From: a virus
Strand: one strand, 5' to 3'
DNA: 64,000 nucleotides
IMG/VR virus record: IMGVR_UViG_3300030117_005808
Span: 42,524-106,523 of that record
Positions 25,621 to 43,854 of this stretch are shown here, piece after piece; positions within the stretch are counted from its first letter, which is position 1, and each line of letters starts with the position of its first letter. Both the position numbers and the translations under genes were made by a program. The notes beneath the pieces are model-generated. The model ran no database searches, had not been told where the DNA came from, and saw only the letters and a program-made list of their open reading frames with translations.

Positions 25621-25848
25621 ATGAAAACCACCAAATCACAGTTAAAACAAATCATTAAAGAAGAAATGTCAAATGCCCTCAAGGAGCAAGACGGTGAAGA
25701 AATAATGTCTGCCATAGAGGACGTGCCAAAGGCAGCAGAGGACATAGCAGATAAGGTGCGTGATGAGGTTGAAAAAATGGCAGAGCCATCTGGCCTCGAC
25801 CCATCAGTTTTAATGCAGGCTATTGCAGCGTTGTTACAAGCAGATTAA
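25621..25848 (+). CDS. Leader-tagged small protein 1 (MKTTKSQLKQIIKEE), putative internal head protein
   Basis: Shared N-terminal motif; acidic helical cargo. Confidence 0.7.
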   Translation: MKTTKSQLKQIIKEEMSNALKEQDGEEIMSAIEDVPKAAEDIADKVRDEVEKMAEPSGLDPSVLMQAIAALLQAD

Positions 25849-25861
25849 GGGAAAATAAACA

Positions 25862-26359
25862 GTGAAAACCACCAAATCACAACTGAGACAAATCATTAAA
25901 GAAGAAATAAGCAGCATGCTGAACAAACCAAGAACAGCAGACCAGTTTTTAGAAATGATTAAGTCTCAGTTTAGGCGGGCGGCAACAGAAAAAACTCTTG
26001 AAATGATGGCTAAATACTATGATGCAATGGTTAAGACCGCAGCCGAAAGAGCACCGCTTCAACCCAGCGACCCAAAAGAGATCGCAGCAGAGATTGGTAT
26101 TGCACAGGACAGTCCTTACCTACGGTGGGCTACTTTCCACCTAAACAAGCTTCAACAAGTACCCAGAGAGGCTTATGAAATGCTGCCCGCAAGTGACGAA
26201 CTTACCGCTATGCATTACGACCGCCTCGCAGCAAAAGAGAAAAAGCGAGCAGAGCGAGAGGCAGAGTTGCGCCGCCCGCGTACACCCGAAGAGAAAAAAG
26301 CAGCAGCAATCAAATTTGGTCAAGATATGGCCGCAGGCAAATACGGCCCGCTAGATTAA
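25862..26359 (+). CDS. Leader-tagged protein 2 (MKTTKSQLRQIIKEE), GTG start
   Basis: Shared N-terminal motif; unrelated C-terminal cargo. Confidence 0.7.
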   Translation: MKTTKSQLRQIIKEEISSMLNKPRTADQFLEMIKSQFRRAATEKTLEMMAKYYDAMVKTAAERAPLQPSDPKEIAAEIGIAQDSPYLRWATFHLNKLQQVPREAYEMLPASDELTAMHYDRLAAKEKKRAEREAELRRPRTPEEKKAAAIKFGQDMAAGKYGPLD

Positions 26360-26370
26360 GGAACAGTATT

Positions 26371-26952
26371 ATGAAAATCACAAGATCACAACTTAAACAG
26401 ATTATCAGAGAAGAGTTGGAAGAAGGCGGTCTCGCTGGGCACTACGACAAGGATCGCGACATCGCCGTATCTGACGCTCTCGTTAATGCGGTGCTTGACA
26501 TGCAGGAGATGCGTGGCGATGCGTATGCTGTAAAGGTTCTTAGAGAGATGGCTAACGACATTGAAAAAGAAATGGCCGCAAAAGACGGCCCCACTATGCA
26601 AGAGGAAGTGAAAAAACAAAGTATAAAGGCAATAATCAAGCCCATTGGTCGTATGACTCGGTACATCTTGAAAACACTCAATTATGATGAAGATCGCGAT
26701 GTTGACTACGGCATACCGGGGGAAGATCCGGGATTTGTAGATGATAAACAGTGGGTTGAACTTAAAAGTCTTGTTCAAACAACTCTTTCCAAGATTCCAA
26801 AGGCAGGAAGGGCCGATGCTATGTATGATGAAATTATGACCAACATTCAAAAACCTCGCCTTCATCGCACAGAGATTGCCGACTTTGCGTCTGCTTTTGA
26901 TGAGTATTTTATCGGGTTAGAGGCTATGGTAAGGGATGGAGATTTAAGATGA
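26371..26952 (+). CDS. Leader-tagged protein 3 (MKITRSQLKQIIREE)
   Basis: Shared N-terminal motif followed by LEE; SD AAGGA. Confidence 0.7.
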   Translation: MKITRSQLKQIIREELEEGGLAGHYDKDRDIAVSDALVNAVLDMQEMRGDAYAVKVLREMANDIEKEMAAKDGPTMQEEVKKQSIKAIIKPIGRMTRYILKTLNYDEDRDVDYGIPGEDPGFVDDKQWVELKSLVQTTLSKIPKAGRADAMYDEIMTNIQKPRLHRTEIADFASAFDEYFIGLEAMVRDGDLR

Positions 26953-27569
26953 AAATCACCAAAGAACTTTTAGAGCAAATGATTGAGGAAGCAGCATCGG
27001 AGTATGTCTATGGTGTTAAAAACCCCGGTCGTGTTGCTAATCAATACAAGATCAAAACAATCAAAAAAGTTATCTTTGAAGAGTTATCCGCAAACCTTAC
27101 TGAGGACGGACACGAAGATACATCCTCAGCTATAAGAAAGTTAAAGACTTCTATTGAAGACGCAGGAGAGATCCTACAAGGTCTCCAAGCACACCACGGT
27201 GATTTACCATCTTGGTGGATGGGCAAAGTAACTATCGCTGCTGACTATCTTAACAAAGCCAGAGACTATTTCCTTGTTTCCGGTGATGTGATGCAAGAAG
27301 AAGAGTTGGACGAGCGATGCCAGAAAGGTTACAAGACCCATCCAACACGCAAAACAAAAGAGATGTACGGCAAGACTTACCGCAATTGTATTAAAGCAGA
27401 AGGCGAGGAAGTTGAAGAGCGCAAACTAAAACCGGGCGAGAAAAGAAAACTTAAACGACTTGAAAAAGAAGTTCCCAAAAAAGACTTTACTGACCAGTAT
27501 GGAAAGGAAGGCGAATCTATTTATTATGCTACCTTGACTAAAATGGCGAAAAAGGATAAGAAAAAATGA
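26949..27569 (+). CDS. Leader-tagged protein 4 (MKITKELLEQMIEE), modular with Glu-rich linkers
   Basis: Degenerate leader plus an internal second copy (IKTIKKVIFEE); three distinct modules; ATGA overlaps on both sides. Confidence 0.7.
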   Translation: MKITKELLEQMIEEAASEYVYGVKNPGRVANQYKIKTIKKVIFEELSANLTEDGHEDTSSAIRKLKTSIEDAGEILQGLQAHHGDLPSWWMGKVTIAADYLNKARDYFLVSGDVMQEEELDERCQKGYKTHPTRKTKEMYGKTYRNCIKAEGEEVEERKLKPGEKRKLKRLEKEVPKKDFTDQYGKEGESIYYATLTKMAKKDKKK

Positions 27570-28183
27570 AAATCACTAGAGAAAAACTAAAGCAAATCAT
27601 CAAGGAAGAACTTGAGAGTGCCCTTAGTGAACAACCACGCGCCATGATCGGCGCAGGTATACCCGGCATTATGAAACGCCTTAGCCCCGTTCCGGACCAT
27701 CTGGTACAAAGCTATAAAGGAAAAAAGAAAGTCTATAACACGAATAATGGAAATATTGTGGCATTAGATGATAGGGGCATTCCTTTTGTTGCATATGCTG
27801 ATGAGATAGAGAAGAACCCCAATGCGGACTACCAATTCGCGATAGACACGCTTAAAAAAAATGGCTATGTAGAAGCTTCTCTAAGTGTCCCTATGTCTCC
27901 GGCAAATCTTGAAGCACTCACTCTCGGAGCTATCAAAGGGGAAGAGATCGACCGTGGCTATGTACAAAGAGCGCGCCCAAACTTTAAGAATCAGGACAAA
28001 GATATCCCCCGGATTAAACAAGTCATCGGCAAGAGAGAACTATCAGACCCAAGTATGCCTAACTGGGATCCCAGCAAAAATCAAATAGTTTACTTGGGAT
28101 CACGGACACTTCGTTCCGGAGATCAGGAAATCTACTTTAAGACATCAAATACTCACAAGTATTATAAAGCATTGTCCAGATAA
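27566..28183 (+). CDS. Leader-tagged protein 5 (MKITREKLKQIIKEE)
   Basis: Shared N-terminal motif followed by LESALSE. Confidence 0.7.
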   Translation: MKITREKLKQIIKEELESALSEQPRAMIGAGIPGIMKRLSPVPDHLVQSYKGKKKVYNTNNGNIVALDDRGIPFVAYADEIEKNPNADYQFAIDTLKKNGYVEASLSVPMSPANLEALTLGAIKGEEIDRGYVQRARPNFKNQDKDIPRIKQVIGKRELSDPSMPNWDPSKNQIVYLGSRTLRSGDQEIYFKTSNTHKYYKALSR

Positions 28184-28196
28184 AGGGAATAACATT

Positions 28197-28646
28197 ATGA
28201 AAACCACCAAACAACAACTTAGACAAATCATCAAAGAAGAGTTAGAGGTCATCCTCACAAACGAGGAGGCAGGCGAACTCTTTGGCGAGGGTGTTGAAGC
28301 AGAGTTAGAAGAAGAGTTGAACGAAGATCTGACTACTATTATGCAGAATCTTACACCTGAGAATCTTGATTTGATTGTTAGGTCTATCATTCAGGTTGGC
28401 ACAACATTTGGTGTTCCGATGCTCGCCGCCGCCCTTGGTAAGTTGGGCCTTGAAGCAGCACAGGCAGCAAGAACAGCCGGCAAGGCGAAAACGATGATTG
28501 GTGATAAGGATTCCGGCAGGTTAGTTGATTTTCTGTATCATGAAATAACAGGTTATAGAGATTTTAAAGGGCAGGATAAGCAGTCACTTGAAGATGCCGA
28601 AAAAGAGTTCCCAATGGCGCCCGCCCGTCCCCCTATGCCTAAATAA
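28197..28646 (+). CDS. Leader-tagged protein 6 (MKTTKQQLRQIIKEE)
   Basis: Shared N-terminal motif; ELEEELNE linker; short hydrophobic segment. Confidence 0.7.
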   Translation: MKTTKQQLRQIIKEELEVILTNEEAGELFGEGVEAELEEELNEDLTTIMQNLTPENLDLIVRSIIQVGTTFGVPMLAAALGKLGLEAAQAARTAGKAKTMIGDKDSGRLVDFLYHEITGYRDFKGQDKQSLEDAEKEFPMAPARPPMPK

Positions 28647-28711: not shown

Positions 28712-31700
28712 TTGAAGATAGCACATATCGCGGATACACACATCCGCAACTATAAGTATCATAGAGAGTATCGTGAGATATTCGATCTTATCTATGATAG
28801 ACTGAAAACAGAGAAAGTTGACTACATTGTTCACTGCGGAGATCTCGCACACACAAAGACACAACTTTCTCCTGAATACTTTGACTTGGCGACATCGTTC
28901 TTAAAGAACCTTGCCGACATTGCGCCGACCTACATCATTCTTGGCAACCACGACGGTAACCTAAAGAATGAACACAGGCAAGACGCAATCACGCCAATCG
29001 CAAACGCACTCCGACACCCGAATCTCAACCTGTTAAAGAACGCAGGCGAGACGATTGTCGAAGGCAACATAGCGTTTAACGTTCTTTCCGTCTTTGATGA
29101 AGAGAACTGGGTGAAGCCGACAAGCGACAAACGCATTAACATTGCGCTGTATCACGGCTCTGTGTCCGGTGTTACAACCGACACAGGCTGGGTAATGACG
29201 CACGGCGACCACCCTATCACAGTCTTTGAAGGGCACGACTATGTGTTCCTCGGGGACATCCACAAAACAAACCAAATCCTCGATGACGAGGGACGTGTAA
29301 GGTATCCGGGCTCCACTGTTCAGCAGAACTTTGGTGAGACGGATGACAAAGGCTTCCTGCTCTGGAACATCCAAAGCAAAGAAGACTTTACTTGTGAACA
29401 CGTTGTAATCCCAAACCCCAAGCCTTTTATAACAATAAACCTAACCCCCACTGGGCGTATGCCCAAAGGCTTGACCGTGAAGAAGGGTGCAAGATTACGA
29501 CTTGTGTCTAACAATAATCTATCTCTTGAAGCGATGCGAAAGGCAGTTGATGTCGCAAAGCAACGCTTCAAGCCCGATACTATTACATTCTTAAACCGCG
29601 CAGCAGGGGAGCGTGGTAATGTTGAAGAAATCACGGACAGTATTCAACAAGACGATATGCGTAATCCACAGATCCAAGAGGAACTTATCCGCGAGTATCT
29701 AGTAGATTACCAAGCCAGCGAAGAACTGATGAAAAAGGTTCTGGACCTTAATACTCTCTACATTAAGAAGGCAGAAGAGTCCGAGGAGATCTCTAGAAAC
29801 ATCAAGTGGCGTATCAACGATCTACAGTGGGATAATCTGTTTAACTACGGTGAAGGCAATAGAATTGATTTTAATAAACTAAACGGAACAGTTGGTATCT
29901 TCGGTAAGAACTACTCCGGTAAATCCAGTGTGGTGGACAGCTTATTATATACTTTGTACAACACAACGTCTAAGAATGAGCGTAAGAATGTCAACATTAT
30001 TAATCAAAACAAGGACGAAGGCTCTGGCGAGGTTGTAATTACTATTGGCGATGAGCAGTATTACGTCCGTCGCGGCTCGTCAAAATACACAAAACGACTC
30101 AAGGGTGTGGAAACTCTTGAAGCCAAAACTGATCTTGACTTCTTCAAGGTCGGCCCAGACGGAGAAAAGGTAAGTTTAAATGGCCTCACAAGAAACGACA
30201 CAGACAAAAACATCAGAAAGGTATTCGGAACTCTTGATGACTTCCTTCTCACTAGTTTGTCTAGCCAGTTGGATAGTCTTTCCTTTATTAGGGAAGGTAG
30301 CACAAAACGGAAGGAAATCTTGGCAAAGTTTCTCGACTTGGAAATCTTCGAGAAAAAGTTCAGACTAGCGAAGGAAGATGCATCTGATATGCGAGGTGCT
30401 TTGAAGCGCCTTGAAGGACGCGACTATGATACAGAGATCGAAGAAGCAGAACAAGAGCACACTCAATGTGAAGAGGAGTTGGATGACCAAAAGGTTAAGT
30501 GCGCCGACTTAAGGCAAGAAGTTATTGATCTTAGAGACAACATTACAGAGATAGAAGGTAAGATTGCATCTATCCCTGCTGAGATGATTGATATTGCAAA
30601 AGTCAAAATAGATATTAGACAAAGGCGTCTGGACCTCACCTCGGCACAAAAAGATCTTGAACAAGACAAGAAAACACTCAAAGATAAAAAGAAACTTACC
30701 AAAGATATTGATAAGTTCTTGGCAGGTTATGACGTTACAGATCTTGGCGATAAAGAAAAGAGGTGCGATCAGCTAGGCTTTGAGATAATGGATTTGGACA
30801 GAGAAATGATCCAGATCGTGAAAAAAGCTGCATCTCTCGACGATCCCGGCTTCTTGCGTGGTTGCAAGTGTTTGCACGAAGCAGAAGAAGCTTTAGCACA
30901 GAAGCCAGACCTTGAACAAAAAATCGAAGAACTTTCTCAGGAACTTGAAGGGCTTGATGTTGAATCTGTCAAGAAAAGCCTTGAGCAGTATCGTTCGCTA
31001 GCAGATAAAAAGAACCAAACGACGAGAGATATCACAACCACAGAACTTGCTATTGCTCGTAACCAGAATACGATCAATCGTCTGGCCACAGAGTTGTCTA
31101 ATCTAAAAGACAAAGAAACATCTTATGAAGACAACCGTGAAGCTATTGAAAACTTGGAAGCACTCCTGACTGAGAAAGACGGCTTAGACGCAGATATATC
31201 TATTAAGGAAGGTAAGCTAGAGGCTTGCAAAGATAAAATTGTTGATTACCACAGAAGAGTTGGCTCGTTAGAGCAAAAAGTTATCAACATTAAGGATCAG
31301 AAGAACGACTATCTTGAGCTACGCGAACAGTTCGCAGCCTACGATCTTTACATGCGTTGTATGCACCCTAACGGTATCGCATACGATGTTATCAAGAAGA
31401 AGCTTCCAGTTATCAACCAAGAGATAGCAAAGGTTCTTACAAACCTAACAAACTTTGAAGTCCTTTTTGAAGAGGATGGAAATAAGCTTGATATCTTTAT
31501 CAAGCACCCGAAGCATGACCCTCGTCCACTCTCTATGGCTTCGGGAGCAGAGAAGACAATGGCCGCAATGGCTATCCGTCTTGCTTTCCTTGCAGTGTCA
31601 AACCTGCCTACAAGCGACATTATGGTGCTTGATGAACCGGGGACAGCATTGGATGAGGAGCACTTACAAGCATTTACCCAACTTTTGGACATGATTAAGG

Positions 31701-31810
31701 TGCATTTCAAGACAACACTTTTGATTTCCCATTTGGATTCTTTGAAAGATGTTGTTGATTTAACACTTGACATTTCCAAAAAAGAAGGTTATGCTTATAT
31801 AAACCAATAA
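28712..31810 (+). CDS. Mre11/SbcD nuclease - Rad50/SbcC ATPase fusion (T4 gp47+gp46-like)
   Basis: Phosphoesterase motifs HIADTH, GDL, GNHD, GDIH; Walker A GKNYSGKSS; coiled coil; signature ASGAE; Walker B VLDEP; LISH; TTG start. Confidence 0.88.
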   Translation: MKIAHIADTHIRNYKYHREYREIFDLIYDRLKTEKVDYIVHCGDLAHTKTQLSPEYFDLATSFLKNLADIAPTYIILGNHDGNLKNEHRQDAITPIANALRHPNLNLLKNAGETIVEGNIAFNVLSVFDEENWVKPTSDKRINIALYHGSVSGVTTDTGWVMTHGDHPITVFEGHDYVFLGDIHKTNQILDDEGRVRYPGSTVQQNFGETDDKGFLLWNIQSKEDFTCEHVVIPNPKPFITINLTPTGRMPKGLTVKKGARLRLVSNNNLSLEAMRKAVDVAKQRFKPDTITFLNRAAGERGNVEEITDSIQQDDMRNPQIQEELIREYLVDYQASEELMKKVLDLNTLYIKKAEESEEISRNIKWRINDLQWDNLFNYGEGNRIDFNKLNGTVGIFGKNYSGKSSVVDSLLYTLYNTTSKNERKNVNIINQNKDEGSGEVVITIGDEQYYVRRGSSKYTKRLKGVETLEAKTDLDFFKVGPDGEKVSLNGLTRNDTDKNIRKVFGTLDDFLLTSLSSQLDSLSFIREGSTKRKEILAKFLDLEIFEKKFRLAKEDASDMRGALKRLEGRDYDTEIEEAEQEHTQCEEELDDQKVKCADLRQEVIDLRDNITEIEGKIASIPAEMIDIAKVKIDIRQRRLDLTSAQKDLEQDKKTLKDKKKLTKDIDKFLAGYDVTDLGDKEKRCDQLGFEIMDLDREMIQIVKKAASLDDPGFLRGCKCLHEAEEALAQKPDLEQKIEELSQELEGLDVESVKKSLEQYRSLADKKNQTTRDITTTELAIARNQNTINRLATELSNLKDKETSYEDNREAIENLEALLTEKDGLDADISIKEGKLEACKDKIVDYHRRVGSLEQKVINIKDQKNDYLELREQFAAYDLYMRCMHPNGIAYDVIKKKLPVINQEIAKVLTNLTNFEVLFEEDGNKLDIFIKHPKHDPRPLSMASGAEKTMAAMAIRLAFLAVSNLPTSDIMVLDEPGTALDEEHLQAFTQLLDMIKVHFKTTLLISHLDSLKDVVDLTLDISKKEGYAYINQ

Positions 31811-35419: not shown

Positions 35420-37393
35420 ATGGCAGATCAAAATAGAAACCCAAGAAACCCAAGATCAGAATTGTTTAAGGCTCTGACTAGAGTTTTCTCTGGTCCACTA
35501 ACAACTAGAAGAACACAGACCGGCCGTAGACTGAGAAGGTATCAACTGGACAAATTCCAGAGTAGATTTACTTCTGCTAGTGGTCAGTCTTTTAAAACCG
35601 CTCGTTCATATAATGCATACAATATGCAACTGGGGATTATGAACCAACACAACCGCACCGAGAGGTATGTTGATTTTGACCAGATGGAGTACACTCCAGA
35701 GATAGCGTCAGCCCTTGATATTTATGCTGATGAGATGACCACGCATTCCTCGTTACAGCCAATGCTTAATATTAAATGTTCGAATGAAGAAATTAAAGCG
35801 GTCCTTGATTCCTTGTATCACAATATTTTAAATATCGATCACAATCTTTTCGGCTGGTGTCGCTCTATGTGCAAGTATGGGGATTTCTTCCTGTATCTTG
35901 ACATAGATGAGAAGTTCGGTATTAAGACCGGCATTGGACTGCCTTCTAGGGAGGTGGAGCGCCTCGAAGGTGAGGACGAGACAAATCCAAACTATGTCCA
36001 GTACCAGTGGAACACAGCGGGTATAACTTTGGAAAATTGGCAAATGGCCCACTTCCGAATCCTTGGGAACGACAAGTATGCACCATATGGAACGTCTGTT
36101 TTAGAACCTGCCCGTCGCATCTTTCGTCAACTAATTCTTTTGGAAGATGCTATGATGGCATACCGTATTGTTCGCTCTCCGGAGCGCCGAGTAATAAAAA
36201 TTGATGTTGGCCAGATCCCTCCTAATGAAGTAGAGCAGTATGTTCAAAAAGTCATCACATCAATGAAACGAAACTCTGTTGTTGACGAAAACACAGGCCG
36301 AGTTGATCTTCGATACAACCCTCTGTCTATTGAGGAAGATTATTACATCCCCGTTCGCGGAGAATCAAAAACAGAAATTACATCTTTACCCGGTGGAACA
36401 TTTACCGGTGACATCGACGACGTTAAATACCTCAGAGACAAACTATTCTCTGCTCTTAAAATTCCTGCTTCCTATCTAACAAATGCTGAAGGTGCTGAGG
36501 AGGATAAAACAACGCTTGCCCAGAAAGATATTCGTTTCGCCAGAACAATTCAGAGACTACAGAGAGTTGTGGTGTCTGAGCTAGAAAAAATTGGTATTAT
36601 CCATCTTTACACTTTAGGATTTAGAGACGAAGATTTGTTAAATTTTGAGCTTGCACTTAATAATCCGTCCAAAATCTCGGAATTACAAGAGCTAGAGCAC
36701 TGGGATAAAAAGTTTGCAGTCGCGGGCGCAGCCACAGAAGGCTTCTTCTCACGCCGTTGGGTCGCCGAGCATCTATTCTGTATGTCCCACGAAGAGTTTG
36801 AAAGAAACCAAAGAGAAATCTTCTACGATCGTAAGTTTGATGCTTCGCTTGCAGCCGTTGCAGAGGCGATGCAAGAAGAGGCAGCAGGAGCAGGCCTTGG
36901 TGATCTTGGAGGCGATGAAGGCCTTGGAGATCTTGGGGATCTTGGCGATGAGGACCTTGGTGGCGATCTCGAAGATCTCGGCGGTGATGAGCCCGCAGCA
37001 GAGGAGCCAGCAGAACCTGAGATTGGTGATGACCCACTCTTAGCCGCCCCCGGTCGAAGAGAAGATGATGGTTATACGACCCCCGGATCCAAAGGTAAGG
37101 TTTATTATCCTGTTAAGAAAGGACGCGACAACAGGGCAAAAGGTGCCATGAAGCGTCACCGTTCATCTGTAGCAGGTACAAATATGGATCCTCGCAAGAC
37201 TTTCCCCGGTAAGAGTGGTTATGGAGGCTTAGATTCCTTAGCCAAGGGGATGTTTGAATCGAAAGAAACTAATTATGATAATGGTTTTAGAACCGAGGAA
37301 GAAAAGATACATAATACTAACTTTGAAGTCAAAAGACTATTGGAAAGTTTAGGTAACTCAACGGAGATTAGCAATGAAACTAAGGCACAATAA
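35420..37393 (+). CDS. Portal protein (T4 gp20-like) with acidic C-terminal extension
   Basis: PEIASALDIYADE, LLEDAMMAYRIVRSPERRV, EEDYYIPVRG, ITSLPGG, DDVKYLRDKLFSALKIP. Confidence 0.95.
   Translation: MADQNRNPRNPRSELFKALTRVFSGPLTTRRTQTGRRLRRYQLDKFQSRFTSASGQSFKTARSYNAYNMQLGIMNQHNRTERYVDFDQMEYTPEIASALDIYADEMTTHSSLQPMLNIKCSNEEIKAVLDSLYHNILNIDHNLFGWCRSMCKYGDFFLYLDIDEKFGIKTGIGLPSREVERLEGEDETNPNYVQYQWNTAGITLENWQMAHFRILGNDKYAPYGTSVLEPARRIFRQLILLEDAMMAYRIVRSPERRVIKIDVGQIPPNEVEQYVQKVITSMKRNSVVDENTGRVDLRYNPLSIEEDYYIPVRGESKTEITSLPGGTFTGDIDDVKYLRDKLFSALKIPASYLTNAEGAEEDKTTLAQKDIRFARTIQRLQRVVVSELEKIGIIHLYTLGFRDEDLLNFELALNNPSKISELQELEHWDKKFAVAGAATEGFFSRRWVAEHLFCMSHEEFERNQREIFYDRKFDASLAAVAEAMQEEAAGAGLGDLGGDEGLGDLGDLGDEDLGGDLEDLGGDEPAAEEPAEPEIGDDPLLAAPGRREDDGYTTPGSKGKVYYPVKKGRDNRAKGAMKRHRSSVAGTNMDPRKTFPGKSGYGGLDSLAKGMFESKETNYDNGFRTEEEKIHNTNFEVKRLLESLGNSTEISNETKAQ
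36893..36990 (+). repeat. Imperfect coding repeat (GDLG/DLGGDE)n in the portal tail
   Basis: ggtgatcttggaggcgatgaaggccttggagatcttggggatcttggcgatgaggaccttggtggcgatctc encodes GLGDLGGDEGLGDLGDLGDEDLGGDLEDLGGDE. Confidence 0.6.
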
Positions 37394-38201
37394 GAAAAGA
37401 AATACTGCTTTCTTGTATGAGGCGCTTGTTAAAGAGTTGACGAAGGCCATCGTTAATAAAGATATAAAAAAGAAAAACGCTTTAGTTTCCACGCTGAAAG
37501 AAAATTTCTCTACTGGGCAAGTTCTTCAAAAAGAGTTGGAACTGATTAGAACTTTGTCCGAGACCAAGAGAGTAGATATGTTCACAGCAGAGCGGTTGTT
37601 ATCAGAATCGGTTTCTCGTTACTCCAAATTGGACGCAGACAAAATTTTTGAAGCACAGTCTAGACTTATAGAAAATATTAATAAAAACTTTGGTAAAGAA
37701 GTTTATAGCAATTTTGTACCAAACTACAAGCACCTCGCTACTATCTGGCAATTGTTTACACAAAATACTTCTGTAAAAGAAAAAGTTCTTTTAGAGAAAG
37801 CCTTAGTTTTTTCTATGACTACAAAAGGTAAAGAACCCGTTAAGGCAAAACAAATGCCCCATGTTGACAAGCTAGTGTTTAAAACTGTTATTGAAAATTT
37901 TAACAAGTCTTATGATGGTGAACTTTTAACAGAACAAAAACAATTATTAAATAACTATATTGTCTCGTTCGGCGCAAATGAAGTGGAATTCAAAGTATAC
38001 CTTAATGAAGAGCTTGGAAGGCTAAAAAACGAAATATCTTTACTTAAAGAAAAAGAAATAATGCTTGAAAATAAAGACCTTTTTAGCAAGTTAGGAGACG
38101 TTAGAGTAACGCTTGATAAATTTCAAACTGAAAAAATTAATCCCACAATGCTAGAAAAAATTATGCAGGTGCAAAAACTTGTGAAGGAATGTTCTGAATA
38201 A
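37374..38201 (+). CDS. Hypothetical head-module protein (helical)
   Basis: Overlaps the portal end; SD GGAG; KLRHNKKRNTAFLYE N-terminus. Confidence 0.6.
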   Translation: MKLRHNKKRNTAFLYEALVKELTKAIVNKDIKKKNALVSTLKENFSTGQVLQKELELIRTLSETKRVDMFTAERLLSESVSRYSKLDADKIFEAQSRLIENINKNFGKEVYSNFVPNYKHLATIWQLFTQNTSVKEKVLLEKALVFSMTTKGKEPVKAKQMPHVDKLVFKTVIENFNKSYDGELLTEQKQLLNNYIVSFGANEVEFKVYLNEELGRLKNEISLLKEKEIMLENKDLFSKLGDVRVTLDKFQTEKINPTMLEKIMQVQKLVKECSE

Positions 38202-39111: not shown

Positions 39112-39152
39112 CTCGGGCGGGTCGCGCCCGCCAACGTCAATTGGAGATAACT

Positions 39153-39767
39153 ATGGGAAAATCACTTTTACGAGAATATTACGCACTTTGTGATGGTGGC
39201 GTCTGTCAAGACTTACTGACTGAAGAAGAAAAGAAGTTGATGTCCGCCGGCAAGAAGTTTTACATGACCGGCTGCATGCAGAAGTTTGATACACCAAACG
39301 GAAACGGTCGCGTTTATTCCAAAGAGATCCTCCAACGCGAAGTAGAAAACTATTGGAAACTTGTCAAGGAGCGTAGAGCACTTGGTGAGTTAGACCATCC
39401 CGATGACTCTGTTATTAACTTAAAGAATGCATCTCACCTTGTAACAGACATGTGGTGGGACGGCCCCGCTCTTATGGGCAAGGTCGAGGTTCTAGATACA
39501 CCATCAGGCAACATTTTAAAACAACTGGCTAACTCTGGTGTCACACTTGGCATTTCATCCCGTGGCCTTGGGTCAGTCAAAGAGGTTCGCGGAACTACAA
39601 TGGTCGAAGACGATTTTCAACTTATCTGCTTTGATTTCGTCTCGGAACCATCTACTCCCGGTGCTTTCATGCATTCCGATAAAAGAATGCGAGAACACAA
39701 AGAACCAAATATTTTTACAAAAGCAGATAAGATAAACAGAATCTTAAATAATATTTTGAGAGATTGA
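39153..39767 (+). CDS. Prohead protease (T4 gp21-like)
   Basis: NGNGRVY, ALGELDHP, ASHLV, LGISSRGLGS, FDFVSEPSTPGA; ATG 39153 has a GGAG SD (track gives TTG 39141). Confidence 0.93.
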   Translation: MGKSLLREYYALCDGGVCQDLLTEEEKKLMSAGKKFYMTGCMQKFDTPNGNGRVYSKEILQREVENYWKLVKERRALGELDHPDDSVINLKNASHLVTDMWWDGPALMGKVEVLDTPSGNILKQLANSGVTLGISSRGLGSVKEVRGTTMVEDDFQLICFDFVSEPSTPGAFMHSDKRMREHKEPNIFTKADKINRILNNILRD

Positions 39768-39768
39768 G

Positions 39769-40197
39769 ATGAAAAGAACAGAACTTAAAAAATTAATAAA
39801 GCCATTAGTAAAAGAATGTGTCCAAGAGACGATTTTAAATGATGGTCTTTTATCAAATATAGTCTCTGAGGTAATGCAAGGAATGGGAAACCAGTTCCTC
39901 GTAGAAAATAAAGAACAGGTTGTTCCCACAATGTCTAACGAAAACAGTGTACAACTAGAACAACTAAAAGAAAGACAACAAGAGACTAGAAAACGATTGC
40001 TTGATGAAATAGGTCACGATGCTTACAATGGTGTTGACCTTTTTGAAGGCACGACGCCTATTAGAGATAGCGGGCAACCCTCCGCGACGGCTCAAGCGAA
40101 CCCAATGTTTGGTCAGGATCCTGACGATGCAGGCGTGGACATTTCATCGATCGTCGCATTAGGTGGAAAAAACTGGAAAGCTTTAGCGAGTAACTAA
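39769..40197 (+). CDS. Hypothetical head protein with leader-like N-terminus (MKRTELKKLIKPLVKE)
   Basis: Directly after the protease; N-terminus resembles the array leader. Confidence 0.55.
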   Translation: MKRTELKKLIKPLVKECVQETILNDGLLSNIVSEVMQGMGNQFLVENKEQVVPTMSNENSVQLEQLKERQQETRKRLLDEIGHDAYNGVDLFEGTTPIRDSGQPSATAQANPMFGQDPDDAGVDISSIVALGGKNWKALASN

Positions 40198-40223: not shown

Positions 40224-40682
40224 ATGGCAACAGATCCCAAAACAGGACAGCAAATATTTGGTGGCTCTTATGGTGTAGGATTCAACAACGTCGGAAGCTA
40301 TCAGGCCAGCGCCAAACCATATATTCAGACAGAACTTGTAGTGCCAGCATCTTCTAGTAACGCAGGCACTGCACTCGAAGTCGCGTTCCCGAAAGTGACA
40401 AAATTTATAACTGTACGAAATGATGGTACAGCATCGGAAGAAATTAGGCTTGCTTTTGCATCTGGCGGACTTGGAGTCAATAAGCTTGGGGCGACATCTG
40501 GTAACAACTACATCAAAATCGCACAATCTGCATCATTCTCAGCAGACTTTAGGGTTACAAAACTTTATCTAATGTCAGAGGATGGCCACACTCCAAACGC
40601 CACCGTCATTGCCGGCTTAACCCAAATAGATGCTACGCGACTTCCAGACTCTTGGAAGGGCGATAATGGTGTTGGCGATTAA
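40224..40682 (+). CDS. Small beta-rich putative virion (decoration-like) protein
   Basis: Head-module location, late motif upstream, Gly/Ala/Ser/Thr-rich. Confidence 0.5.
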   Translation: MATDPKTGQQIFGGSYGVGFNNVGSYQASAKPYIQTELVVPASSSNAGTALEVAFPKVTKFITVRNDGTASEEIRLAFASGGLGVNKLGATSGNNYIKIAQSASFSADFRVTKLYLMSEDGHTPNATVIAGLTQIDATRLPDSWKGDNGVGD

Positions 40683-41041: not shown

Positions 41042-42013
41042 ATGCCAACACTCTTAGAACAAGCTATTATTGATGCACAAGAACTTAGAGACGCCGCGCT
41101 AAAGAACGCCGAGTCTACTATTCTAGAAAAGTATAACAACGAAGTGAAGAATGTTGTTGAAACCCTCTTGGAGCAGGAAGAGGAAATGATGGGGGCTATG
41201 GAAGAACCTGCCTTCGCCGCTGCCGAAGAAGAGGAAATGTGTCCTTGCCCGGACAAGGAAGAGGAAGAGACCGTAATGTTCAGTCTTGATGACCTAAAAG
41301 CCATGGCTGATGAACTTGACGGTGATGCTCTTGGGACTCCCGAGGATCAAGAAGATCTTATGACTGATCTTGGAATGGAGCCCGAAGAAGAGGAAGACAC
41401 ACTTCCCCTTCAAGAAGATCTTCAGTTGGTTGAAGAAGAAGTTGAACTCGATGAAGCTACAATCAAAGAACTTGTTGAAGAATTGGTTGTTGATGTTGTG
41501 CCTACCAAGAGTGGCTGGCTAGCAACTCCTCAAGGCGAGATGCAATATGCAGAAGAATTAGAATTGGCTAGACTGGCTAGCACAGAGGCCCAAGAGCAGA
41601 TTAAAGCTCTTAAGGATGCCCGTGACCGTCTAACCATCACAAACGAATCTTTGACAAGCGACAATAAGAAGCTTGTTGAGGGCATCTTAGCATTGAAAGA
41701 GAAGGTTGAACAAACCCTCTTGGAAAATGCGAAACTACTCTATATGAATCAGGCATTGAATAGTGCCTCCCTGAATGAGCGACAAAAGTCAAACGTTGTC
41801 GAGTCTATTCGCAAGGCTGATTCTGTTGAAGAGGCGAAGGTAATATTTGAAACCCTTCAAAGCGCAGCGGGCGATTCTACTCGTAGAAAGCCAAAATCGT
41901 TGAGCGAAGCAATCAGTAGACCTTCATCGACATTGCCAAGACGAAGAAAAGAAAGAGCACAAGGGGAAACCATTGTGAAGGATCGATTCCAAAGATTGGC
42001 AGGACTTAAATGA
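41042..42013 (+). CDS. Prohead core scaffolding protein (gp22-like)
   Basis: Very acidic coiled coil with many (L/I)xE sites, between protease and MCP; C-terminal DRFQRLAGLK. Confidence 0.75.
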   Translation: MPTLLEQAIIDAQELRDAALKNAESTILEKYNNEVKNVVETLLEQEEEMMGAMEEPAFAAAEEEEMCPCPDKEEEETVMFSLDDLKAMADELDGDALGTPEDQEDLMTDLGMEPEEEEDTLPLQEDLQLVEEEVELDEATIKELVEELVVDVVPTKSGWLATPQGEMQYAEELELARLASTEAQEQIKALKDARDRLTITNESLTSDNKKLVEGILALKEKVEQTLLENAKLLYMNQALNSASLNERQKSNVVESIRKADSVEEAKVIFETLQSAAGDSTRRKPKSLSEAISRPSSTLPRRRKERAQGETIVKDRFQRLAGLK

Positions 42014-42054: not shown

Positions 42055-43854
42055 ATGTCAGTATTAAATAAATTAACTGAAGGAATCGTTAACCGCGATC
42101 TCCGTCAGGAAGGCGATGCTCTTATCTCCAAGTGGGAAAAGACCGGACTCCTCGAAGGCCTCAATAACGATGTCACGAAGAACGGTATGGCTCGTCTCCT
42201 TGAAAACCAAGCCAAGCAGCTTCTGAAAGAGGCTTCTTCTATGGCAGCAGGCGATGTGGAAGGTTTTGCTTCCGTCGCTTTCCCGCTCGTTCGCCGCGTG
42301 TTCGGTGGTCTTTTGGCCAACGATCTCGTTAGCGTTCAGCCGATGAGTCTCCCAAGTGGTCTCATCTTCTTCCTCGATTTCACTTACGAGGCTGGTAAGC
42401 TCGGCCTCGCCGCCGGCGAATCCGTCTACGGTGGTGGAGTTGTTGGTAAGGGCATCCAAACGGGTGTCACAGACATCACCGAAGAGGGTGGTGGCCTGTA
42501 TAACTTGCAGAATGGTTACTCGCAAGTAAGTGCTTCGACAACTGTTGCAACTACCATTGTTGCTTCTGGTAACGTCGGTGTGGGTGGTATTCCCGAGTTT
42601 GGTGATACAACTGTTTCTGGCTTTACTGCTGGTTATGACCTTGCTCGTCTTCTGAAGTTCGACGTGGACCTTGTGTCTGGTTCGGCTTTCGCAGCAGCAA
42701 CAGTGCCATTGGCTACACTCACAGCAGCAGGCGTGCGATTCAACGAGGATGACTTTGTTGATATCAAGCTTGCCGACCAAAGCATTGACGGTGGTCTCGG
42801 TACTCTTACTGATGGTCTTCAAGTTCGTCGCTTGACCCAGCTTGACCCAACTGAGAATGCAGCTTCGGCAACTAGGCTTCTGTTTGTTGTCGCCGCAACT
42901 GGTTCGGAAACAACCGCGCAGATGACGACCTCGCTCAACGCTGTTGATCTTGCACTTCACACCATCGTGGATGACTTCATCGCTGGCGGCGCCATCGGTG
43001 CTGTTGTTGGTGATGATACTTGGGGTCTTGAAGAGCCTCAGTTCGGTACCGGCAATGCTGGTTCTACGACGGCTAAGAACGAGATCCCCGAGATCGACAT
43101 CAAGGTGGACTCGATTGCTGTTACGGCACAAACCCGTAAGCTGAAAGCTAAGTGGTCGCCGGAACTTGGTCAGGACTTGAACGCCTACCACAACCTTGAT
43201 GCCGAGGTTGAGTTGACTAGTGTTCTCTCTGAGCAGATTGCTCTTGAGATCGACCGTGAGATCGTTTCTGATCTTATTAACGGTGCAACTGCTGGTACGT
43301 TCTATTGGTCGCGCTCTCCGGGCATGTTCCTGAACCGCACAACCGGTGCAGAGATTGGCGCTTCAACCGCCGCTCCTGACTTCACTGGTACGGTTTCCGA
43401 ATGGTACGAGACCCTTATCGAGACTGTTAATGATGTCTCGGCACAGATCCACCGCAAGACTCTGCGGGGTGGAGCTAACTTCATCGTGACCTCACCTGAA
43501 GTTGCTAACATCCTTGAGTTCACCGCTGGTTTCCGTGCAAGCGTCACCGCTGATGCTGATCGTGGCACCGCAGGTGCTGTGAACGTTGGTGCTATCTCGA
43601 AGAAGTTCGACGTGTACGTCGATCCTTACTTCCCTCGCAACGTGCTGCTTGTCGGCCGTAAGGGTGGTAGCTTCCTTGAGTCGGGCTATGTTTACGCTCC
43701 GTATGTGCCGTTACAGGTCACGCCGACTATCTTCGGTACCGAGGACTTCATCCCCCGCAAGGGCGTGATGACTCGCTACGCTAAGAAGATGGTCCGTCCT
43801 GATATGTACGGTCTGGTCATCTGTCGTGGCCTTCTCGGTGAGTCTGGCGCTTAG
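42055..43854 (+). CDS. Major capsid protein (T4 gp23-like)
   Basis: LLENQ, PLVRRV, VSVQPMSLPSGLIF, RKLKAKWSPELGQDLNAYH, EIDREI, YAPYVPL, GVMTRY; strong codon bias; SD AAGGAGGT. Confidence 0.97.
   Translation: MSVLNKLTEGIVNRDLRQEGDALISKWEKTGLLEGLNNDVTKNGMARLLENQAKQLLKEASSMAAGDVEGFASVAFPLVRRVFGGLLANDLVSVQPMSLPSGLIFFLDFTYEAGKLGLAAGESVYGGGVVGKGIQTGVTDITEEGGGLYNLQNGYSQVSASTTVATTIVASGNVGVGGIPEFGDTTVSGFTAGYDLARLLKFDVDLVSGSAFAAATVPLATLTAAGVRFNEDDFVDIKLADQSIDGGLGTLTDGLQVRRLTQLDPTENAASATRLLFVVAATGSETTAQMTTSLNAVDLALHTIVDDFIAGGAIGAVVGDDTWGLEEPQFGTGNAGSTTAKNEIPEIDIKVDSIAVTAQTRKLKAKWSPELGQDLNAYHNLDAEVELTSVLSEQIALEIDREIVSDLINGATAGTFYWSRSPGMFLNRTTGAEIGASTAAPDFTGTVSEWYETLIETVNDVSAQIHRKTLRGGANFIVTSPEVANILEFTAGFRASVTADADRGTAGAVNVGAISKKFDVYVDPYFPRNVLLVGRKGGSFLESGYVYAPYVPLQVTPTIFGTEDFIPRKGVMTRYAKKMVRPDMYGLVICRGLLGESGA

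What the first reader, a model, noticed from the sequence alone, without database searches (positions are those of the whole stretch)
26949..27569. Array member 4 looks like a polyprotein of micro-domains separated by prohead-protease sites
Seen: leader, second leader-like segment ending LTE, a helical module (GHEDTSSAIRKL...LPSWWMGKVTIAADYLNKARDY), linker MQEEELDE, a Cys-pair basic module (RCQKGYKTHPTRKTKEMYGKTYRNCIK), linker AEGEEVEE, and a basic module (RKLKPGEKRKL...YGKEGESIYYATLTKMAKK). Inference: gp21 cleavage after the Glu-rich linkers would release three 25-60-aa peptides inside the head, a viral-polyprotein strategy not commonly described for tailed phages. Member 3 (MQEE) and member 6 (ELEEELNE) show similar internal linkers.
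Basis: partly seen in the sequence, partly recalled or inferred. Interest (0 to 1): 0.75.

Follow-up and report, generated by a model that had tools for sequence, protein, structure and literature searches.

The report
Phage head cargo built as cleavable mini-polyprotein
One gene of an uncultured marine T4-like phage strings together several tiny protein modules, each preceded by the cutting motif of the phage's head protease. The same modules turn up reshuffled in hundreds of related phage proteins, so it probably yields a set of small peptides inside the capsid, but no experiment has shown the cutting.

Summary
Window 26949-27569 (+) is a 206-aa ORF, the fourth of six leader-bearing genes, in a T4-like phage that has its own gp21-type (S77) protease, gp23 capsid protein and portal.

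- a leader, a 21-aa peptide and a second, internal leader-like segment
- a helical module H, a Cys-pair module C and a basic module B

In 360 metagenomic relatives, H, C and B, plus two further modules X and K, occur alone and in at least 26 different orders, including B-C, C-H, H-B and C-B.

- In 247 of 255 distinct junction contexts the module is directly preceded by [LIVMF]-x-Glu, against a background of 3.3% per position. P2 and P4-P6 vary freely.
- This is the published T4 gp21 motif, L/I-X-E.
- The motif is depleted inside H and B.
- AlphaFold gives separate small folds with no inter-module packing.

The best reading (about 0.6) is that the leader loads the protein into the prohead and the protease cuts it into peptides of about 3-7 kDa. 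Cleavage, packaging and function are all inferred.

This is a new variant of the T4 targeting-sequence and internal-protein system. The scan had already noted the same layout on this DNA and in one other genome.

The parts
26949..26990 (+). Leader 1 (residues 1-14, MKITKELLEQMIEE), a variant of the array leader; candidate P1 Glu at residue 13 or 14
   Evidence: 156 of 360 relatives start with this leader type
26991..27053 (+). Short peptide (residues 15-35) between the two leaders. Together with leader 1 and the internal leader it forms a 46-aa unit that also sits directly in front of module C in other proteins.
   Evidence: P0066, P0030, P0153; fragment family 4, n=35, five different right-hand neighbours
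27054..27104 (+). Internal leader-like segment (residues 36-52, ..IKKVIFEEL..NLTE), ending in L-T-E directly before module H
   Evidence: in many relatives this segment aligns to the true N-terminal leader (query 38 to subject 8)
27105..27299 (+). Module H (residues 53-117): begins D-G-H, holds LPSWW and NKARDY; helical hairpin; 7.2 kDa, net charge -5
   Evidence: HMM hits in 310 of 360 relatives; stand-alone leader+H genes of 73-88 aa; AlphaFold pLDDT >90 over the hairpin
27300..27314 (+). Acidic linker EELDE, with L-D-E directly before module C
27315..27395 (+). Module C (residues 123-149): Cys-pair basic module (RCQKGYKTHP...YRNC)
   Evidence: HMM hits in 83 relatives, at any position and in proteins of up to 816 aa; 33 of 34 junction contexts have the motif
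27396..27419 (+). Acidic linker AEGEEVEE, with V-E-E directly before module B. In locus L001 a 44-codon module X sits at this spot.
27420..27569 (+). Module B (residues 158-206, plus stop): strongly basic (+9.8), two helices
   Evidence: HMM hits in 93 relatives, often N-terminal to H or C; pLDDT 76-85; motif depleted inside, 2 against 30.8+-4.7
25621..28646 (+). The array of six leader-bearing genes, of which this ORF is member 4
39141..39767 (+). Prohead protease of the T4 gp21 / Peptidase_S77 type, the presumed cutting enzyme
   Evidence: Pfam PF03420, E 8e-30; T4 gp21 structure 5JBL, E 3e-17, with His and Ser present in the query at the aligned active-site positions
41042..42013 (+). Probable scaffold protein (Glu-rich coiled coil, 20 [LIVMF]-x-E sites) directly upstream of the capsid gene
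   Evidence: position only, no family hit
42055..43854 (+). gp23-type major capsid protein. Its N-terminal 59 residues hold four motif sites; the last is L-K-E59|A60, just before the region that aligns with mature T4 gp23*.

Best explanation
Member 4 is a precursor of head-internal peptides.

Proposed mechanism:
- Its N-terminal leader works like the T4 capsid targeting sequence and brings the whole 206-aa chain into the prohead core (inferred).
- The phage's gp21-type protease then cuts after Glu in each [L/I/V/M]-x-E site that flanks the modules (inferred).
- This removes the leaders and acidic linkers and releases four peptides: a 30-aa basic peptide, H (about 7.2 kDa, acidic), C (about 4.2 kDa with its acidic tail) and B (about 5.9 kDa, charge about +10).

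Shown here:
- The modules are independent evolutionary units.
- The cleavage-type motif travels with every module.
- The motif is avoided inside H and B.
- The genome encodes the matching protease.

Further inferences:
- The basic peptides probably stay with the packaged DNA and enter the host with it, as T4 internal proteins do.
- The architecture most likely arose by fusion of neighbouring array genes, since the internal leader is retained and stop and start codons overlap as ATGA.
- Modules are gained and lost by recombination in the repetitive Glu-codon linkers.
For: 1. Context. The window holds an S77 protease, gp23 capsid protein, portal and terminase. The T4 gp21 motif is L/I-X-E and the T4 targeting sequence is 10 aa ending I-A-E (PMC9026906).
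2. Shuffling. There are at least 26 architectures of H, C, B, X and K, and more among the 50%-identity representatives. Only 7 of 784 related clusters reach E<=1e-30, against 313 at E<=1e-10, so strong matches are few and most listed hits cover a single module.
3. Junctions. [LIVMF]-x-E precedes 247 of 255 unique junctions, with P1=Glu in 251. P2 takes more than 10 different residues. Background is 3.3% per position.
4. Depletion inside modules. H has 46 sites against 100.8+-7.8 expected, and B has 2 against 30.8+-4.7. Site density outside modules is seven times higher.
5. Unbiased check. 38% of internal homology-block starts fall within -4..+1 of a site, against 16% for random positions.
6. 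Structure. Member 4 has pTM 0.29, with linkers and C below pLDDT 50, H about 70 and B about 80. H modelled alone has pLDDT above 90 over the hairpin.
7. Co-occurrence. Three of five viral contigs that carry the modules encode an S77 protease. The other two are fragments estimated 23-24% complete.
8. Cargo parts of the other array members carry 5 sites against 11.8+-2.6 expected. Core proteins beside the protease are enriched, z = 1.8-2.7.
9. The X-module indel is a clean 132-nt in-frame event flanked by ATGGAAG...GATGGACGAG repeats.
Against: - No proteomic, biochemical or structural data exist for this phage or any relative. None of the modules is found in the 50,697 deposited phage records.
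- I set the module starts by eye right after the Glu. The motif could therefore be counted as part of each module, although five unrelated modules share only those two positions.
- 26 of 114 distinct H modules carry M-S/Q-E in their inter-helix loop, and X holds several internal sites. Not every site can be a productive cut, or some modules are cut further.
- In T4, small cleavage products mostly leave the head (PMC5694885). Retention of 4-7 kDa peptides, especially the acidic H, is therefore unproven.
- Within this single window the statistics are weak.
Confidence: 0.6

Rival explanations
1. This is leader-only processing. The protein is loaded into the head and loses only its N-terminal leader or leaders. 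H-C-B stays as one flexible multi-module internal protein, and the Glu-rich linkers are merely spacers.
For: In T4, the internal proteins and Alt are trimmed only at their ends (PMC9026906). Not every L/I-x-E in a T4 head protein is cut. Some H modules tolerate an internal site.
Against: It does not explain why P3 and P1 are kept in 247 of 255 junctions of five unrelated modules while P2 and P4-P6 drift. It also does not explain why the motif is purged from inside B and H. The linkers are predicted to be disordered and so accessible.
Confidence: 0.2
2. This is an assembly or scaffold-type role. The modules, above all the ubiquitous H, are prohead core components like T4 gp67/gp68. They are cut up so that they can be expelled before DNA packaging, and are not delivered to the host.
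For: T4 gp22, gp67 and gp68 are cut into short fragments that leave the head (PMC5694885). H is acidic and is present in 310 of 360 relatives, which looks more like a core part than an arms-race cargo.
Against: The gene lies in a variable array next to replication genes, not in the head module. Copy number and combination of modules vary freely between close relatives. B and C are strongly basic, like the DNA-bound T4 internal proteins.
Confidence: 0.12
3. The protein is not a capsid protein at all. The leader is a conserved translation or expression element, or a recombination handle, and the modules are cytoplasmic small proteins. The hydrophobic-x-Glu pattern is a by-product of helical acidic linkers or of recombination at linker DNA.
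For: Linker DNA does carry short direct repeats at an indel. No family or structure match ties any module to a virion.
Against: Conservation at the junctions is at protein level only, in two positions, with variable neighbours. That is not what DNA homology would give. The leader ends in the same motif and resembles the T4 targeting sequence in length and layout. The modules co-occur with S77 proteases.
Confidence: 0.08

Closest known systems
T4 capsid targeting sequence (CTS) with internal proteins IPI/IPII/IPIII and Alt, processed by prohead protease gp21
   Same: - A short N-terminal amphipathic leader ending in I/L-x-E sits on unrelated cargoes.
- The genes are clustered in a variable locus.
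- The genome encodes a gp21-type S77 protease.
- Some cargoes are basic.

   Different: - There is no sequence similarity to any T4 internal protein.
- The leader is 14 aa here, and 10 aa in a sister clade.
- The T4 proteins are single cargoes trimmed at their ends, whereas here several micro-domains are chained, each behind its own site, and reshuffled between phages.
Multi-site cleavage of T4 core proteins gp22/gp67/gp68 and of phiKZ / 201phi2-1 / SPN3US inner-head proteins
   Same: One head protein is cut several times after Glu at a minimal motif (PMC9026906, PMC5694885).
   Different: Those cuts lie in scaffold proteins or long propeptides and serve to clear material from the head. The fragments are not conserved, portable modules found alone and in other orders.
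Polyvalent proteins of phages and conjugative elements (Iyer et al. 2017, PMC5512222)
   Same: These are mosaic, combinatorially shuffled multi-domain proteins predicted to be packaged and delivered with the DNA. Processing into parts has been suggested for them.
   Different: Those proteins consist of 2-15 full-size, mostly enzymatic domains, and often carry their own peptidase domain. Member 4 has no such domain. Its units are 27-65 aa, and the proposed cutter is the separate head protease acting at a motif before each unit.
Polyproteins and core-protein precursors of eukaryotic viruses, for example the adenovirus pVII and pX(mu) precursors cut by the virion protease (from general knowledge, not tested here)
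   Same: The logic is the same: basic DNA-associated peptides are made from precursors by a protease that acts inside the assembling particle.
   Different: The lineage, protease family and motif are unrelated. The resemblance is functional only.

Membership tests
T4-type CTS-led head-internal proteins | N-terminal leader of about 10-20 aa ending in L/I-x-E | tested here: met
   Residues 1-14 end M-I-E-E. The five sister genes end I-I-K/R-E. The motif definition comes from PMC9026906.
T4-type CTS-led head-internal proteins | gp21 / Peptidase_S77 prohead protease encoded by the same phage | tested here: met
   Window 39141-39767 matches PF03420 at E 8e-30 and T4 gp21 structure 5JBL at E 3e-17.
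T4-type CTS-led head-internal proteins | Sequence homology to IPI, IPII, IPIII or Alt | tested here: not met
   No Pfam or PHROG family, no tblastn hit in 50,697 phage records, and no PDB sequence hit.
T4-type CTS-led head-internal proteins | Shown to be packed into the prohead and cut there | not testable with these tools
   The phage is uncultured and no proteome is available.
Viral polyprotein (functional sense) | Two or more units that also exist independently | tested here: met
   Stand-alone leader+H and leader+C+B genes exist, and there are at least 26 architectures.
Viral polyprotein (functional sense) | A conserved protease recognition site at each unit boundary | tested here: met
   247 of 255 unique junctions carry [LIVMF]-x-E, against 3.3% background.
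Viral polyprotein (functional sense) | Cleavage at those sites demonstrated | not testable with these tools
   This needs mass spectrometry or an in-vitro digest.
Polyvalent proteins (Iyer et al. 2017) | Known effector or enzymatic domains, often with an in-chain peptidase | tested here: not met
   Member 4 has no Pfam domain. Among relatives there is only a sub-threshold kinase-like hit (26.2 bits against a cut-off of 31.7) in an 816-aa protein, and DUF3008, just above its cut-off, in P0054.
ATCUN (amino-terminal Cu/Ni) peptides | Free N-terminus followed by X-X-His | tested here: inconclusive
   197 of 198 distinct H modules begin D-G-H directly after the predicted P1 Glu. A free amine would exist only if the cut occurs, which is unproven.
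H-NS-like DNA-binding proteins (the label some JGI records give leader+C+B relatives) | Pfam H-NS domain above its threshold | tested here: not met
   PF22470 scores 15.5-17.2 bits against a cut-off of 24.5, and the match lies over the leader and C region.

The most novel reading that the evidence does not exclude
Marine T4-like phages run a combinatorial peptide-delivery system. Dozens of portable micro-domains (at least 45 recurring fragment families in this neighbourhood alone) are strung in any order behind a loading leader. The head protease turns each chain into a cocktail of 3-7 kDa peptides that travel with the DNA.

In the most widespread module, cleavage would create a free N-terminal Asp-Gly-His. 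That is an ATCUN-type Cu(II)/Ni(II) site that exists only after the cut, so the peptide would be a protease-activated metallopeptide.
Probability: 0.15. Interest if true: 0.9.

Novelty: new variant of a known kind. Interest (0 to 1): 0.7.

Why it matters
If the cuts occur, the contents of the capsid of a very abundant, uncultured group of ocean phages could be read from sequence. One would take each leader-bearing gene, cut it after every hydrophobic-x-Glu in a linker, and list the peptides.

It would extend the T4 load-and-clip principle from single proteins to multi-cargo precursors. It would also show how gene arrays and fused chains can interconvert without changing the mature products.

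It would add a natural precedent for packing several small payloads from one construct in T4-type display and delivery systems.

Finally, it defines several widespread small modules (H, C, B) of unknown function as targets for study.

Tried and rejected
- Pfam and PHROGs on all six array members gave only noise.
- tblastn of member 4 and of a stand-alone H protein against deposited phage genomes found no match.
- A PDB sequence search found nothing.
- Foldseek of the member-4 model and of the confident H model against PDB and BFVD gave no match at E<=0.001. A two-helix hairpin is uninformative for this kind of search.
- ESM Atlas returned only viral 'hypothetical protein' clusters.
- The 'H-NS' label on some relatives rests on a sub-threshold hit and was rejected.
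- A literature search for the module motifs found nothing relevant.
- A first run of the fragment clustering timed out and was repeated.
- Within-window motif statistics alone are too weak to carry the claim.

Full report
**What is there**

Window 26949-27569 (+) is an uninterrupted 206-aa ORF. It is the fourth of six consecutive genes (25621-28646) that all begin with the same leader of about 14 aa, of the type MK-T/I-T-K/R-x-Q-L-K-Q-I-I-K-E-E. Members 3/4 and 4/5 overlap by ATGA.

The window belongs to a 106.5-kb uncultured virus record. It encodes a T4-type large terminase and portal. It also encodes a Peptidase_S77 prohead protease at 39141-39767 (Pfam E 8e-30). That protease matches T4 gp21 structure 5JBL at E 3e-17, with His and Ser present at the aligned active-site positions. 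A gp23-type capsid protein lies at 42055-43854. The nearest cultured capsid relatives are Flavobacterium phages of the 'immuto' group, Microcystis phage Mel-JY01 and Rhodothermus phage RM378, at 42-48% identity. The premise that a gp21-like protease is at hand is therefore sound.

**Anatomy of member 4**

- Leader, residues 1-14.
- A 21-aa peptide, 15-35.
- An internal leader-like stretch, 36-52, ending L-T-E.
- Module H, 53-117. It begins D-G-H, weighs 7.2 kDa and has net charge -5.
- Linker EELDE, 118-122.
- Module C, 123-149, with a Cys pair.
- Linker AEGEEVEE, 150-157.
- Module B, 158-206. It weighs 5.9 kDa and has net charge about +10.

**Is it more than chance?**

One protein cannot say. 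Its motif count is 9 against 5.9+-2.0 expected. The family can.

Member 4 has 855 near-length and 318 shorter relatives in marine metagenomes. It has 784 clusters at 50% identity, but only 7 of these reach E<=1e-30, against 313 at E<=1e-10. Strong matches are few, and most listed hits match only one module's stretch of the query.

BLAST mapping and module HMMs show H, C and B behaving as independent units, together with two further units. These are X, a 41-aa helical insert, and K, a 46-aa basic tail. Observed arrangements include leader-H alone (73-88 aa, very common), leader-C-B, H-B without C, H-C-X-B, H-C-X-K, B-C, C-H, B-H, C-H-B and H-B-K. That is at least 26 architectures in the first 240 proteins, and more among the diverse representatives. 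There the modules lie anywhere in proteins of 67-797 aa. Viral contigs add chains of 331-816 aa in which C sits among many other small basic, Cys-rich blocks. It also excludes the stated refuter of 'fixed order, one folded domain'.

**The junctions**

I took each HMM-defined module start and collapsed identical contexts. [LIVMF]-x-Glu directly precedes the start in 247 of 255 cases:

| Module | Junctions with the motif | Unique contexts |
|---|---|---|
| H | 155 | 159 |
| C | 33 | 34 |
| B | 45 | 48 |
| X | 6 | 6 |
| K | 8 | 8 |

The same motif occupies 3.3% of positions in these proteins. P1 is Glu in 251. P3 is L, then I, V and M in falling order. P2 takes more than ten different residues, and P4-P6 are not conserved.

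This is the published specificity of T4 gp21: L/I-X-E, cutting after Glu, with few other determinants (PMC9026906). Five unrelated modules share nothing but these two positions. That pattern fits a recognition site better than five coincidental structural caps.

Several further results agree:
- The motif is depleted inside modules. H has 46 sites against 100.8+-7.8 in shuffles, and B has 2 against 30.8+-4.7. Outside modules it is seven times denser.
- An analysis that does not use my module definitions agrees. 38% of internal homology-block starts fall within -4..+1 of a site, against 16% for random positions, with peaks at P3, P1 and P1'.
- In the window, the cargo parts of the other five array members carry 5 sites against 11.8+-2.6 expected. 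Proteins beside the protease are enriched: 37374-38201 at z=2.7, 39769-40197 at z=2.3, and the probable scaffold 41042-42013 at z=1.8.
- The capsid protein has four sites in its first 59 residues. The last, L-K-E59|A60, lies just before the stretch that aligns with mature T4 gp23*.

**Structure**

AlphaFold on member 4 with a 51-sequence alignment gives pTM 0.29. H is modelled at pLDDT about 70 and B at 76-85 as a helix pair. Residues 15-33 and 45-56 and the whole stretch 110-157 (linker 1, C and linker 2) fall below 50. H modelled alone, as a stand-alone leader-H protein with 44 sequences, is a confident two-helix hairpin. Its pLDDT is above 90 over the hairpin, with a less confident leader helix in front. 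The picture is beads on a string, not one fold. No fold or family match gives a function.

**Co-occurrence with the protease**

Three of five viral contigs carrying the modules encode an S77 protease. The two without it are fragments estimated 23-24% complete. The modules also appear behind at least three other N-terminal types:
- a 10-aa MIKLK-x-LL-x-E leader, the same length as the T4 targeting sequence
- a ..DLY-K/R-QV-x-L-x-E start
- a DUF3008 domain

Each of these again ends in the motif where a module follows. So the modules move between phage lineages that use different leaders.

**How it most likely works**

Shown:
- The modules are independent.
- A protease-type site is conserved at every junction.
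- The site is avoided inside H and B.
- The matching protease is present in the genome.

Inferred:
- The leader loads the chain into the prohead core as the T4 targeting sequence does.
- The protease cuts at the flanking sites, discarding leaders and acidic linkers.
- The products are a 30-aa basic peptide (residues 15-44), H, C (35 aa with its acidic tail) and B.
- The basic products would stay on the DNA and enter the host with it, like T4 internal proteins.

**Origin of the architecture**

The internal leader (residues 36-52) aligns with the true N-terminal leader of many relatives. Adjacent array genes overlap by ATGA. Member 4 therefore looks like a fusion of two array genes, and such a fusion would leave the mature products unchanged.

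Module gain and loss happens in the linkers. Compared with the syntenic gene in L001, the X module is a clean 132-nt in-frame indel bounded by ATGGAAG...GATGGACGAG repeats.

Member 3 is composite too. Its first ~65 aa are a separate gene in L003. For member 6, only the N-terminal 83 aa are shared with the L001 homologue.

**Caveats**

- Nothing has been tested at the bench, and no relative exists among deposited phage genomes.
- I placed the module starts right after the Glu.
- Some H modules carry M-S/Q-E in their loop, and X has internal sites.
- T4 fragments mostly leave the head (PMC5694885), so retention, especially of the acidic H, is open.
- Leader-only trimming (0.2), a scaffold-like role with expulsion (0.12) and a non-capsid role (0.08) remain as rivals.

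**Comparison with what is known**

The system works like the T4 targeting-sequence, internal-protein and gp21 system. It meets that system's sequence-level criteria (leader, motif, protease) but has no homology to T4 internal proteins.

Multi-site cutting is known for T4 core proteins and for phiKZ-like head proteins (PMC9026906, PMC5694885). Those fragments, however, are not portable modules.

The 'polyvalent proteins' of Iyer et al. (PMC5512222) share the mosaic, packaged-effector idea. They consist of full-size enzymatic domains, often with their own peptidase.

I therefore rate this a new variant of a known kind.

**A speculative extra**

197 of 198 distinct H modules begin D-G-H right after the predicted cut. 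A free X-X-His N-terminus is the ATCUN Cu/Ni-binding motif. If the cut occurs, H would acquire such a site only on processing. This is untested.

**Earlier scan notes**

The same layout had been noted by first readers on this DNA in an overlapping window, and in one other genome. Follow-up reports on other genomes reached the capsid-targeting-like reading of the leaders. I treat these as leads, not as evidence.

Noticed in passing
window 40224-40682 (+): A 152-aa ORF between the protease and the scaffold gene contains M-S-E followed by D-G-H. This is the same 'site + DGH' start as module H, although the rest of the protein is unrelated and rich in beta-type sequence.
   Followed up: no
window 39769-40197 (+): The 142-aa ORF right after the protease starts with a leader-like MKRTELKKLIKPLVKE and is enriched in [LIVMF]-x-E (7 sites against 3.4 expected, z=2.3). 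It is a candidate prohead core protein of the gp67/gp68 kind.
   Followed up: partly
window 37374-38201 (+): A 275-aa ORF overlapping the end of the portal gene has 16 [LIVMF]-x-E sites against 9.8 expected (z=2.7) and no family hit. It may be a second scaffold or core protein.
   Followed up: partly
L005:6621-9071 and L006:3311-5761: These are 816-aa proteins. They have an N-terminal kinase-like region (Pkinase, 26 bits, below the cut-off), poly-Lys/Arg runs, module C and many further small basic Cys-rich blocks. Several of the blocks are preceded by hydrophobic-x-Glu. They look like much longer chains of the same kind.
   Followed up: partly
window 27396-27419 against L001:8352-8664: Module X (44 codons) is present in L001 and absent in the window. 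The indel is flanked by the direct repeats ATGGAAG and GATGGACGAG in the Glu-codon linkers, which suggests short-homology recombination.
   Followed up: yes
window 26371-26952 (+), member 3: Its first ~65 aa equal a stand-alone 65-aa gene in L003 (7078-7275, 57% identity). Member 3 is therefore also a fusion of at least two units, and the syntenic array in L001 lacks member 3 altogether.
   Followed up: partly
relatives P0156-P0240 (metagenomic): A very abundant clade carries H behind a 10-aa MIKLK-x-LL-x-E leader. Single 73-aa sequences are seen on 168-209 contigs. A 100-aa form has an extra 25-aa peptide between two sites.
   Followed up: partly
window 28712-31810 (+): SbcD-like and SbcC-like parts are fused in one 1032-aa ORF (PHROG 100 and 77). 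An earlier scan note also mentions this.
   Followed up: no
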